A DNA stretch of 64,000 nt, taken from the NCBI RefSeq assembly GCF_009914755.1, contig NC_060930.1; one strand, written 5' to 3'. Origin of the DNA: the human T2T-CHM13v2.0 reference genome, Homo sapiens. Below, piece by piece: positions 42,920 to 50,162 of the stretch. The translations under genes were made by a program, and so were the position numbers. Under the pieces are notes generated by a model. The model worked only from the letters and a program-made list of their open reading frames with translations. It made no database searches and was not told where the DNA came from. Position 1 is the first letter of the stretch, and every line of letters begins with the position of its first letter.

Positions 42920-43066
42920 AATATTTATTGAGACCTGTTGAATGTCAGGTGCTAAAGATGGTGAACCGAATAGAAATAATATCTGCCACAGATAACTTTA
43001 GTTGAACAAAGAATACTGATAAGTAACTAGATTTTTATAAGACAACATGTGATAAAACTTACATAT
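42920..43066 (-). mobile_element. L2 3' part (insertion target), resuming at ~49038-49500
   Basis: atatttattgag... L2 tail motif; continues as cccagaggaag...aaggatgagtaggaact...ggagaccagttaggagg after the L1. Confidence 0.65.
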
Positions 43067-43216
43067 GAGGCCTAGCTTCCCAGCCTACATTTTTCTCCCA
43101 TGCTGGATGCTTCCTGCCCTCAAACATCGGACTCCAAGTTCTTTAGTTTTGGAACTTGAATTGGCTCTCCTTGCTCTTCAGCTTGCAGACAGCCTATTTT
43201 GGGACCTTGTGATCAT
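43067..43216 (+). mobile_element. MLT2A (HERV-L LTR) partial segment, carried as a 5' transduction
   Basis: ggcctagcttcccagcctacat...tgctggatgcttcctgccctc...cagcttgcagacagcctatt..gggaccttgtgatcat matches recalled MLT2A1/A2; both LTR termini absent; lies inside the L1 TSD. Confidence 0.85.
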
Positions 43217-43379
43217 GAAGACAGATGCCTTCTTGGTCCTCCCCTGGAATTTCTAGCCCTACTATGGATGTTTCTGTTTGCTCTGTTTCTCTGAGTGAGG
43301 GCTTTATTGTTCTTTGGATTTGAAGAGAGGCCAACAACCTCCACTGACCCAGATGGCCAGTATGGAAATATACATATGT

Positions 43380-46300: not shown

Positions 46301-49024
46301 GAAGAAGTTGACTCTCTGAATAGACCAATAACAGGCTCTGAAATTGTGGCAATAATCAATAGTTTACCAACCAAAAAGAGTTCAGGACCAGATGGATTCA
46401 CAGCCGAATTCTACCAGAGGTACAAGGAGGAGCTGGTACCATTCCTTCTGAAACGATTCCAATCAATAGAAAAAGAGGGAATCCTCCCTAACTCATTTTA
46501 TGAGGCCAGCATCATCCTGATACCAAAGCCTGACAGAGACACAACCAAAAAAGAGAATTTTAGACCAATCTCCTTGATGAACATACATGCAAAAATTCTC
46601 AATAAAATACTGGCAAACTGAATCCAGCAGCACATCAAAAAGCTTATCCACCATGATCAAGTGGGCTTCATCCCTGGGACGCAAGGCTGGTTCAGTATAC
46701 ACAAATCAATAAATGTAATCCAGCATATAAACAGAACCAAAGACAAAAACCACATGATTATCTCAATAGATGCAGAAAAGGCCTTTGACAAAATTCAACA
46801 ACCCTTCATGCTAAAAACTCTCAATAAATTAGGTATTGGTGGGACGTATCTCAAAATAATAACAGCTATCTATGACAAACCCACAGCCAATATCATACTG
46901 AATGGGCAAAAACTGGAAGCATTCCCTTTGAAAACGGGCACAAGACAGGGATGCCCTCTCTCACCACTCCTATTCAACATAGTGTTGGAATTTCTGGCCA
47001 GGGCAATTAGGCAGGACAAGGAAATAAAGGGTATTCAATTAGGAAAAGAGGAAGTCAAATTGTCCCTGTTTGCAGATGACATGATTGTATATCTAGAAAA
47101 CCCCATCGTCTCAGCCCAAAATCTCCTTAAGCTGATAAGCAACTTCAGCAAAGTCTCAGGATACAAAATCAGTGTACAAAAATCACAAGCATTCTTATAC
47201 ATCAATAACAGACAAACAGAGAGCCAAATCATGAGTGAACTCCCCTTCACAATTACTACCAAGAGAATAAAATACCTACAAATCCAACTTACAAAGGATG
47301 TGAAGGATCACTTCAAGGAGAACTACAAACCACTGCTCAACAAAATAAAAGAGGACACAAATGGAAGAACATTCCATGCTCATGGACAGGAAGAATCAAT
47401 ATCATGAAAATGGCCATACTGCCCAAGGTAATTTATAGAGTCATTGCATCCCCATCAAGCTACCACTGACTTTCTTCACAGAATTGGAAAAAACTACTTT
47501 AAAGTTCATATGGAACCAAAAAAGAGCCCGCATCGCCAAGTCAATCCTAAGCCAAAAGAACAAAGCTGGAGGCATCACGCTACCTGACTTCAAACTATAC
47601 TACAAGGCTACAGTAACCAAAACAGCATGGTACTGGTACCAAAACAGAAATATAGATCAATGGAACAGAACAGAGGCCTCAGAAATAATGCCGCATATCT
47701 ACAACTATCTGATCTTTGACAAACCTGACAAAAGGAGCAATGGGGAAACGATTCCCTTTTTAATAAATGATGCTGGGGAAACTGGCTAGCCATATGTAGA
47801 AAGCTGAAACTGGATCCCTTCCTTACACCTTATACAAAAATTAATTCAAGATGGATTAAAGACTTACATGTTAGACCTAAAACCATAAAAGCCCTAGAAG
47901 AAAACCTAGGCAATACCATTCAGGACATAGGCATGGGCAAGGACTTCATGTCTAAAACACCAAGAGCAATGGCAACAAAAGCCAAAATTGACAAATGGGA
48001 TCTAATTAAACTAAAGAGCTTCTGCATGGCAAAAGAAACTACCATCAGAGTGAACAGGCAACCTACAAAATGGGAGAAAATTTTTGCAATCTACTCATCT
48101 GACAAAGGGCTAATATCCAGAATCTACAATGAACTCAGACAAATTTACAGGAAAAAAACAAACAACCCCATCAAAAAGTGGGCAAAGGATATGAACAGAC
48201 ACTTCTCAAAAGAAGACATTTATGCAGCCAAAAAACACATGAAAAAATGCTCATCATCACTGGCCATCAGAGAAATGCAAATCAAAACCACAATGAGATA
48301 CCATCTCACACCAGTTAGAATGGCAATCATTGAAAAGTCAGGAAACAACAGGTGCTGGAGAGGATGTGGAGAAATAGGAACACTTTTACACTGTTGGTGG
48401 GACTGTACACTAGTTCAACCATTGTGGAAGTCAGTGTGGCGATTCCTCAGGGATCTAGAACTAGAAATACCATTTGACCCAGCCATCCCATTACTGGGTA
48501 TATACCCAAAGGACTATAAATCGTGCTACTATAAAGACACGTGCCCACGTATGTTTATTGTGGCACTATTCACATTAACAAAGACTTGGAACCAACCCAA
48601 ATGTCCAACAATGATAGACTGGATTAAGAAAATGTGGCGCGTATACACCATGGAATACTATGCAGCCATAAAAAATGATGAGTTCATGTCCTTTGTAGGG
48701 ACATGGATGAAACTGGAAACCATCATTCTCAGCAAAGTATCGCAAGGACAAGAAACGAAACACCACATGTTCTCACTCATAGGTGGGAATTGAACGATGA
48801 GAACACATGGACACAGGAAGGGGAACATCACACTCTGGGGACTGTTGTGGGGTGGGGGGAGGGGGGAGGGATAGCATTAGGAGATATACCTAATGCTAAA
48901 TGACGAGTTAATGGGTGCAGCACACCAACATGGCACATGTATACATATGTAACAAACCTGCACATTGTGCGCATGTACCCTACAACTTAAAGTGTAATCA
49001 TAATAATAAAAAATAAAATAAAAA
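43380..49024 (+). mobile_element. Near-full-length L1 (L1PA3/PA4-like) with spliced 5'UTR (SpIRE 97/622 type)
   Basis: 5' end GGAGCCAAGATGG; junction CATCTGAG|CTTTGAAG at 43471/43472; ORF1 intact; ORF2 broken; poly(A); TSD aaaacttacatat (43054-43066 / 49025-49037). Confidence 0.95.
43894..44910 (+). CDS. L1 ORF1p, full-length 338 aa open frame
   Basis: MGKKQSRK...QKHAKL; REKG, ARR and YPAKLS motifs intact; expression unknown. Confidence 0.85.
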   Translation: MGKKQSRKTGNSKKQSTSHPPKERSSSPATEQCWTENDSDELREEGFRRTNYSELREETQTNGKEVKNFEKKLDECITRITNAEKCLKELMELKAKAQELHEECRSLRSRRDQLEERVSVMEDEMNEMKRERKFREKRIKRNEQSLQEIWDYVKRRNLRLIGVPESDGENGTKLENTLQDIIQENFPNLARKANIQIQEIQRTPQRYSSRRATPRHIIVRFTKVEMQEKMLRAAREKGRVTHKGKPIRLTADLSAETLQARREWGPIFSILKEKNFQARISYPAKLSFISEGEIKSFTDKQMLRDFVTTRPALRELLKEALNMERNNRYQPLQKHAKL

Positions 49025-50162
49025 AAAACTTACATATTAGGGAAATATTATAGGAGGTGCGTACTCCAGACTCTATAGAGAGATCAAGGAATACTTTGAA
49101 TATTTCCCAGAGGAAGCAGTTTTAACTCAAAATTAAAGGATGAGTAGGAACTAATAGAAGCATGGGTTTCTGAAGAAGAGGGACTAGCAAGAGGAAAGGC
49201 CCCTAGAGTTCAGAGAAGCAGACTAGAGAAAAACCAGAAGGAGTCATATATGGCTGGGCAGAGTGTATATGAATGTAGCCAGGGGAGGAAAGAATAGGGG
49301 GATAAGGTAGAGATGACACTTGTGGCCTGATTAAGGAGTTTGTACTCTGTCCTTATATAATGTATATAAACTATTCAGGCCTTCTAAGCAGTGATATGTG
49401 GTGGTCAGTTTTACTTCGAGAATGACATGGTATGGAGAATAGATTTGGAGAGGAGCAAGATTTGGGGCAAGGAGACCAGTTAGGAGGACTAATCCAGAAG
49501 ATGGATATTGATGATTTCCTACTAGAGATTTAGAAAGAAGACTCGAGTACCTAGCTTTTCATGTCTCTGTATTTGTTTTCTCCTTTTCACTGCCCTTTTT
49601 TCTTCCCTCATTTACCCCTGTGTTCTGTACTGTCACTTGCTTCCAGTTGTCAATATGTTGATTTCTGTTTCTTTATTCGTTGCTCACATAATGTATATTA
49701 CCCTGCTAATATGACTTTAAAGAGTGACTTTATTGAAATATAATTCATATATAATAAAAGGTAGATATTTTAAGGTACAGATCAATGAATTTTTACAAAT
49801 ACATATCGCTGTGTAACCACTACCACCACAATCAAGATATAGAACCTTTTCGTCACTCCAAAAGGTTTCTTTGTGCCCCTCGCTAGTCAGCCCCCAACCA
49901 TGGCCTTGGTGACTGATCTGTTTTTTTTAATCACCATAGATTATATTTTCTTTTCTAGAGTTTTATGTGAGTGGTTTCATACACTGTGTACCCTTTTGCG
50001 TCTTTCTTCCGTTATGTTTCTGATTTGTTATGAATTCACCTGTTCATCTGTCCATTGACTTTTCAAATGTCTTTCTTCTTAAGTTTGTTTTCTTTCCCAA
50101 CTGGAACATGGTATTAAATCATTTATTTTTCTTTTTTCTTTTTTTTTTTTTTGGTATTAAAA

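What the first reader, a model, noticed from the sequence alone, without database searches (positions are those of the whole stretch)
43054..49037. Retrotransposed chimeric mRNA: HERV-L LTR (MLT2A) exon + unique exon + spliced L1 within one TSD
Seen: the 13-bp repeat aaaacttacatat after the L1 poly(A) (49025-49037) has its partner 313 nt upstream of the L1 5' end (43054-43066), at an endonuclease-like T|AAAA site. An L2 fossil is cut at that point and resumes after 49037, so 43067-43379 arrived with the L1 as a 5' transduction. Its first 150 nt are MLT2A LTR sequence lacking both LTR termini, ending at ...ccttgtgatcat. Recalled knowledge: the MLT2A consensus continues there with a GT(A/G)AGT splice donor; the segment begins roughly 30 nt downstream of the LTR TATA-like box; MLT2A1/A2 LTRs are DUX4-responsive promoters active at the human 4-8-cell stage. 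Inference: a transcript started in an MLT2A LTR, spliced to a ~163-nt exon (43217-43379) reading into a downstream source L1, was spliced again in the L1 5'UTR, and was fully reverse-transcribed. This would be a heritable record of an ERV-L promoter driving L1 mobilisation in the early embryo or germline, independent of the L1's own promoter.
Basis: partly seen in the sequence, partly recalled or inferred. Interest (0 to 1): 0.92.

Follow-up and report, generated by a model that had tools for sequence, protein, structure and literature searches.

The report
L1 copy launched from retroviral promoter
A LINE-1 insertion in a SMAP1 intron carries three spliced exons copied from a chromosome-16 locus that begins in an old retroviral promoter, likely one active in 4- to 8-cell embryos, so this promoter likely drove a LINE-1 that is now missing from that locus to jump in the ape germ line, possibly in the early embryo.

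Summary
One 13-bp target-site duplication (43054-43066 / 49025-49037) encloses 313 nt of foreign sequence plus an L1 with a spliced 5'UTR. Of those 313 nt, 312 map colinearly to chr16 (minus strand) as four pieces joined at GT-AG boundaries: an MLT2A1 LTR exon (149 nt, from the family's start-site window to its splice donor), two unique exons (84, 65 nt) and 14 nt behind an AG 24 kb further on. That last place is an endonuclease-like site with no young L1 in this genome, likely the footprint of a lost source L1. The donor LTR matches an element reported active in 4/8-cell embryos and pineal gland. The L1 is already catalogued (SpIRE97/622-60, L1PA4) but scored 'no transduction'; it is not among the 17 published mRNA/lncRNA-L1 chimeras. 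The class is known; an ERV-L promoter version with a traceable empty source site was not found in my searches. Inferred, not shown: the source L1, cis-splicing rather than template switching, and embryo rather than germ-cell timing. The L2 continuity could not be tested.

The parts
43054..43066 (+). 5' target-site duplication (13 bp) at an AT/AAAA endonuclease-like site
43067..43067 (+). One G not templated by the chr16 donor (cap-derived G, or a mismatch inside a 17-bp TSD)
   Evidence: cap-G reading from PMC9341517 passages
43068..43216 (+). Exon 1: MLT2A1 LTR from the start-site region to the splice donor; donor T2T chr16:57572866-57572718 (-), 7 mismatches in 149
43217..43300 (+). Exon 2 (84 nt); donor chr16:57569613-57569530 (-), AG before, GTGAGT after, 1 mismatch
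43301..43365 (+). Exon 3 (65 nt); donor chr16:57564487-57564423 (-), AG before, GTGAGT after, 2 mismatches
43366..43379 (+). 14 nt from chr16:57540181-57540168 (-), directly behind a TTAG acceptor; likely the 5' TSD remnant of the lost source L1 (last two bases could also be L1-derived)
43380..43471 (+). L1 5'UTR up to its splice donor (92 nt); with the 14 nt it forms a 106-nt internal exon
43472..43893 (+). L1 5'UTR from the 622-type acceptor to ORF1
43894..44910 (+). ORF1, open, 338 aa
44974..48793 (+). ORF2, broken by stops and frameshifts (first stop at 44989)
48794..49024 (+). L1 3'UTR and decayed A-rich tail
49025..49037 (+). 3' target-site duplication

Best explanation
This is one L1-mediated insertion of a spliced RNA whose first three exons come from a chr16 locus starting in an MLT2A1 (HERV-L) LTR, and which was likely cis-spliced into an L1PA4 that then stood 33 kb downstream of that LTR and is absent from this genome. 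Shown: the TSD, the four colinear chr16 pieces with GT-AG boundaries, the start inside the LTR's start-site window, the L1 5'UTR splice, the empty site. Inferred: the source L1 had inserted at a TT/AG site, so its 5' TSD supplied an AG acceptor 14 nt before the L1; together with the L1's own donor this defined a 106-nt exon, and the next splice went to the 622-type acceptor. The RNA was copied to or near its cap and inserted on chr6; the source allele was later lost or never fixed. The new copy has neither the LTR's DUX4-like motifs and TATA region nor the L1 promoter core, so it was likely silent from the start. The event had to be heritable; a DUX4-driven 4- to 8-cell embryo is the likeliest setting (about 55%), germ cells the alternative.
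For: Unique part hits only itself and two chr16 places (3 of 3 matches). Best LTR match after self is 3.1 kb upstream on the same strand, 96% against at most 93% for the other 38 listed, and shares 6 rare states with the chr6 copy. Introns 3104, 5042, 24241 nt, all GT-AG; 10 mismatches in 312 nt. AG plus the 14-mer occurs 27 times in the genome, once on chr16, on the right strand 24 kb downstream; chance about 4e-4 within 100 kb. No young L1 in 70 kb around the donor. Start is LTR position 197, equal to 206-216 in 10 other copies measured; published start sites 205-215, donors near 350 (PMC8559712). Table S1 element 3025 (hg38 chr16:51774814-51775229, minus) is active in embryos (46 cells, 17.0 TPM) and pineal gland (13.7 TPM), 2 DUX4 motifs; 280 of 2416 long MLT2A1 copies are embryo-active. 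Its identity with the donor is backed by the neighbouring element 3023, found at an offset within 1.03 kb of the donor's. Same geometry as RAP1GDS1-L1PA2, acceptor 15 bp before the L1 (PMC13174262).
Against: The source L1 is not in CHM13; no sibling insertion carries exons 2-3 or the junction. TT/AG is partly forced by any splice acceptor, so the endonuclease-site argument is weaker than it looks. A 2-nt GT overlap at the L1 junction fits template switching too. Six upstream ATGs shared with the donor would likely hinder ORF1 translation from this RNA. Expression of single MLT2A copies is poorly conserved among primates (Spearman 0.08-0.24), so today's embryo activity need not hold for the ancestor. 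The second coordinate anchor (elements 3026/3027) was not in the 3 kb fetched. No RNA reads were examined.
Confidence: 0.75

Rival explanations
1. Template switch: reverse transcriptase copied an unrelated spliced L1 RNA almost to its 5' end, then jumped to the spliced MLT2A1 transcript 14 nt into a natural fourth exon, using a 2-nt GT overlap. No L1 ever stood on chr16.
For: No L1 at the chr16 site. Related L1 5' ends often read GTGGAGCC, so the GT is shared. Template switching gives same-sense chimeras (PMC13174262 discussion).
Against: The break lies a TSD's length (14-16 nt) behind a TT/AG site and at the very 5' end of the L1, the geometry of the RAP1GDS1 case where the source survives. 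It needs two rare RNAs at one insertion.
Confidence: 0.13
2. Micro-exon plus cis- or trans-splicing: the first 12 nt of piece 4 are a micro-exon whose GT is a donor, spliced to an L1 elsewhere whose 5' end is preceded by AG.
For: chr16 does read GT after those 12 nt. L1 5' ends with AG before GTGGAGCC exist (52 exact genome matches). Trans-splicing is the model favoured for most such chimeras.
Against: The donor context (TAT/GTATTT) is very poor. The exact matches on chr16 are 4 Mb downstream or on the other strand; 646 of the 746 matches, all one-mismatch ones, were not listed. None of the 40 best ORF1 relatives lies near the donor (40 of 6132 candidates scored).
Confidence: 0.06
3. Two events: a processed copy of the chr16 transcript inserted first and the L1 later landed in it, with the 8-bp TSD given in the SpIRE catalogue.
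For: An 8-mer does recur at 43364 and 49041; Larson et al. scored 'Transduction: No'.
Against: That reading needs 8 untemplated bases 5' and 12 extra bases 3'. The 8 bases are templated by chr16, the 12 include part of the 13-bp TSD, and sequence after 49048 is not chr16 exon sequence. The exons have no tail or TSD of their own.
Confidence: 0.03

Closest known systems
RAP1GDS1-L1PA2 chimeric insertions and the 17 mRNA/lncRNA-L1 5' transductions (Law and Burns 2026, PMC13174262)
   Same: Spliced first exons in sense, near-full-length L1, one TSD, tail; short last piece behind an acceptor about 15 nt before the L1; L1 with the 5'UTR splice; long last intron.
   Different: Promoter is an ERV-L LTR rather than a gene promoter; source L1 is gone but an empty site is traceable; one copy only; this locus is not among the 17 rows of Table S5.
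SpIRE97/622 (Larson et al. 2018, PMC5860796); this L1 is SpIRE(97/622)-60
   Same: Same element, same 5'UTR splice, L1PA4, in SMAP1.
   Different: The catalogue gives an 8-bp TSD and no transduction; the real TSD is 13 bp and lies 313 nt further upstream.
MLT2A1-initiated spliced and TE-TE chimeric RNAs of 4/8-cell embryos (Hashimoto et al. 2021, PMC8559712; review PMC13690279)
   Same: Same start-site window, same donor, AG acceptors outside the LTR, fusion to L1.
   Different: Those are RNAs; here one such RNA was fixed as DNA. Neither text, in the passages I saw, reports a retrotransposed copy.
Short L1 5' transductions with an extra G (e.g. macaque L1RS from PRDM4, PMC9341517)
   Same: 5' extra sequence traces the donor; extra G at the 5' edge.
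   Different: Those are a few unspliced bases, possibly from the L1's own promoter; here 32.7 kb of pre-mRNA was spliced down.

Membership tests
mRNA/lncRNA-L1 5' transduction chimera | One TSD encloses 5' segment and L1 | tested here: met
mRNA/lncRNA-L1 5' transduction chimera | Endonuclease-like site and A-rich tail | tested here: met
   AT/AAAA site and decayed tail
mRNA/lncRNA-L1 5' transduction chimera | 5' segment is spliced, sense, from the start of a transcript elsewhere | tested here: met
mRNA/lncRNA-L1 5' transduction chimera | 5' segment and L1 arrive together in primate alignments | not testable with these tools
   no other primate genome held (header)
cis-spliced promoter co-option (RAP1GDS1 type) | Source L1 present downstream at the donor locus | tested here: not met
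   empty site; no young L1 in chr16:57515001-57585000; other genomes untested
cis-spliced promoter co-option (RAP1GDS1 type) | Acceptor about one TSD length before the L1 5' end | tested here: met
   14 nt
SpIRE97/622 | 5'UTR donor joined to the 622-type acceptor | tested here: met
   catalogue entry
SpIRE97/622 | L1PA1-L1PA6 subfamily | tested here: inconclusive
   PA4 label taken from the catalogue; 96% to nearest genomic ORF1 relatives; no consensus library here
MLT2A1-initiated spliced transcript | Starts at LTR positions 205-215 behind a TATA-like box | tested here: met
MLT2A1-initiated spliced transcript | GT donor near LTR position 350, AG acceptor outside | tested here: met
MLT2A1-initiated spliced transcript | Donor LTR has DUX4 motifs and is expressed in 4/8-cell embryos | tested here: met
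   published table row, coordinate match by one anchor of two tried; two motif-like sites by a recalled pattern
MLT2A1-initiated spliced transcript | These exon junctions seen in RNA reads | not testable with these tools
   no read data; one supplement search found nothing
Template-switch chimera | Junction to L1 is not a splice site and has at most microhomology | tested here: inconclusive
   2-nt overlap; equally expected at a source TSD/L1 border

The most novel reading that the evidence does not exclude
A fixed genomic record that an embryo-genome-activation MLT2A1-L1 chimeric RNA was retrotransposed in a cleavage-stage ape embryo: a DUX4-driven ERV-L promoter mobilised an L1PA4 without its own promoter. 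And the short last pieces in other 5' chimeras are TSD footprints of lost source L1s, so ordinary cis-splicing, not trans-splicing, explains many of them.
Probability: 0.4. Interest if true: 0.8.

Novelty: new variant of a known kind. Interest (0 to 1): 0.63.

Why it matters
It links two lines of work that have been separate: ERV-L LTR chimeric RNAs of the early human embryo and heritable L1 jumps. If right, a burst of LTR promoter activity can mobilise a downstream L1 regardless of silencing at the L1's own promoter, and the donor exons say which promoter was on when the jump happened. The empty site bears on an open question: 15 of 17 published chimeras have no source L1 and trans-splicing was proposed; here a lost source can be placed to the base and looked for in ape genomes. 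It also corrects a catalogue entry and gives a screening rule (LTR exon from start site to donor, inside an L1's TSD).

Tried and rejected
Source or sibling with the same junction: only the window itself, up to 3 mismatches. Other insertions with the MLT2A exon end within 30 nt of an L1 5' end: 0 exact matches. MLT2A donor joined straight to the L1 622 acceptor: 10 matches at 2 mismatches against 3 in the reversed control, none better, none examined. 75 LTR-like sites lacking the donor G were listed but their DNA was not obtained, so other processed copies remain unscreened. L2 continuity: no usable hit. Second coordinate anchor not found in 3 kb. Gene name of the donor: LINC01571 is recalled for this region; 18 papers name it but the listing gave no coordinates, so it is unverified. 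Embryo isoform supplements: no hit for the name or coordinates in 8 files. PMC6500023 is an engineered construct, not relevant. Published 8-bp TSD rejected (see rivals). Literature searches for an LTR-driven retrotransposed L1 chimera: searches found none; the library omits most subscription papers.

Full report
Observation. The 13-bp repeat lies at 43054 and 49025 and nowhere else in the window. The longest match of the same 3' flank in 2666 random 1-kb stretches was 8 nt. Between the left copy and the L1 5' end (43380) lie 313 nt. The L1 has an open 338-aa ORF1, a broken ORF2 and a decayed A-rich tail. Its 5'UTR is spliced after 43471: a close unspliced relative has a 512-nt GT-AG intron at that point.

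Donor. A genome search with 43217-43379 gave 3 matches: itself and two places on contig C16 (taken as chr16), minus strand. The best non-self match to 43067-43216 is 3.1 kb upstream of them, 96% against at most 93% for the other 38 listed, of 1848 candidates with 40 scored; the chr6 copy shares 6 states with it that at most 3 of 18 other copies carry. Exon by exon: 149 nt (7 mismatches), 84 nt (1), 65 nt (2), with GTAAGT, GTGAGT and GTGAGT donors and AG acceptors; the script's cut between exons 2 and 3 was one base off the GT-AG register because a G is shared. The last 14 nt were not within 20 kb. I asked for AG plus those 14 nt: 27 places in the genome, one on chr16, on the right strand, 24,241 nt behind exon 3; chance about 4e-4 for a 100-kb span. 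That place reads TT/AG plus the 14 nt and then non-L1 sequence. No young L1 lies in the 70 kb examined, and the junction exists only in the window. So 312 of the 313 nt are a spliced copy of a 32.7-kb chr16 pre-mRNA. Ten mismatches in 312 (3.2%, interval 1.5-5.9%) give about 9 million years (4.5-17) at the 0.17% per million years used in PMC13174262, older at a slower hominoid rate (recalled); either fits an ape-lineage L1PA4.

Promoter. The donor LTR is complete (419 nt). The copied part starts at its position 197, which equals 206-216 in the 10 of 18 other copies that could be measured, the donor being 9 nt shorter behind its TATA-like box. Hashimoto et al. (PMC8559712; I read parts 1-2 of 6, further passages and one part of the tables file; its first supplementary file could not be searched) place MLT2A start sites at 205-215 and donors near 350. 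Their Table S1 has one MLT2A1 between 47.9 and 58.4 Mb of hg38 chr16: element 3025, minus strand, 415 nt, expressed in 46 embryo cells (17.0 TPM), active in pineal gland (13.7 TPM), two DUX4 motifs. To check the coordinate match I looked for its neighbours: 3023 was found on the expected strand at an offset 1.03 kb from the donor's; 3026/3027 were not in the 3 kb fetched. Only 280 of 2416 long MLT2A1 copies are embryo-active. Against over-reading: expression of single copies correlates poorly between human and macaque or marmoset (0.08-0.24), and DUX4-made promoters are also reported in testis (title only). The chr6 copy lacks both DUX4-like motifs (recalled pattern).

Mechanism. Shown: one TSD, four colinear pieces with splice boundaries, start in the LTR start-site window, L1 splice, empty site. 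Inferred: an L1PA4 once sat at the empty site in the same sense; its 5' TSD carried an AG 14 nt before the L1, and with the L1's own donor this made a 106-nt exon; the RNA was then spliced to the 622-type acceptor, read through the L1, and was copied to or near its cap (extra G at 43067, though that base may be a mismatch in a 17-bp TSD). The source allele was lost. Whether the source was itself already spliced cannot be told. Six upstream ATGs shared with the donor suggest ORF1p may have come partly from other L1s. Rivals are template switching at a 2-nt overlap (0.13), a 12-nt micro-exon spliced to another L1 (0.06; exact AG-preceded L1 ends on chr16 are 4 Mb away or on the other strand, most one-mismatch hits unlisted) and two separate insertions (0.03).

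What is known. Larson et al. 2018 (PMC5860796; passages and supplement hits) list this L1 as SpIRE(97/622)-60, PA4, SMAP1, 8-bp TSD, 'Transduction: No', with unexplained extra bases. Law and Burns 2026 (PMC13174262; sections 13, 14, 49, first parts of 15 and 34, all of Table S5 with long cells cut, six supplements searched, one too large) describe 17 mRNA/lncRNA-L1 chimeras, 15 without a source L1, and favour trans-splicing; RAP1GDS1-L1PA2 has the same geometry with a surviving source. This locus is not among the 17 rows, and SMAP1 and MLT2A do not occur in the searched supplements. MLT2A1-L1 chimeric RNAs in 8-cell embryos are described in a review (PMC13690279, passages); I did not read the primary paper. 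Nine searches found no report of a retrotransposed ERV-L-promoter L1 chimera; subscription papers and unseen supplements may hold one.

Verdict. A real single insertion, a new variant of a recently described class: the promoter is an ERV-L LTR that matches an embryo-active element, and the lost source can be placed to the base. Interest 0.63; 0.8 if embryo origin and the lost-source reading are confirmed (probability about 0.4).

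Noticed in passing
PMC13174262 Table S5: Several published chimeras end in a short last piece (RAP1GDS1 15 nt, FHIP1A 13 nt, ENSG00000233928 8 nt), and 4 of 17 rows show the 97/622 splice plus one near variant, against about 1.8% of full-length L1s. 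This fits exon definition by a TSD acceptor and the L1 donor, and lost sources.
   Followed up: partly
L039 5186-8178 and on into L026 region (chr16:57540186-57543178): The empty site sits at the truncated end of an older antisense L1 (69.6% to the window L1).
   Followed up: no
L005 1500-1700 (donor LTR): Donor LTR is 9 nt shorter between TATA-like box and start site than 7 other copies (26 vs 35; one copy 37; 10 not measured).
   Followed up: partly
one search list, 75 genome places: MLT2A-like exon ends lacking the donor G; mutated LTRs or further processed copies.
   Followed up: no
L049 (C13:46.60 Mb) and L043 (C11:5.98 Mb): L049 has the same 5'UTR splice; L043 matches across the junction. 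Their 5' flanks were not checked for transductions.
   Followed up: no
window 42515-42558: 22-nt tandem duplication, 95% identical.
   Followed up: no
window 43054-49037: The insertion lies in a SMAP1 intron in the gene's own sense; any effect on SMAP1 splicing or polyadenylation was not examined.
   Followed up: no
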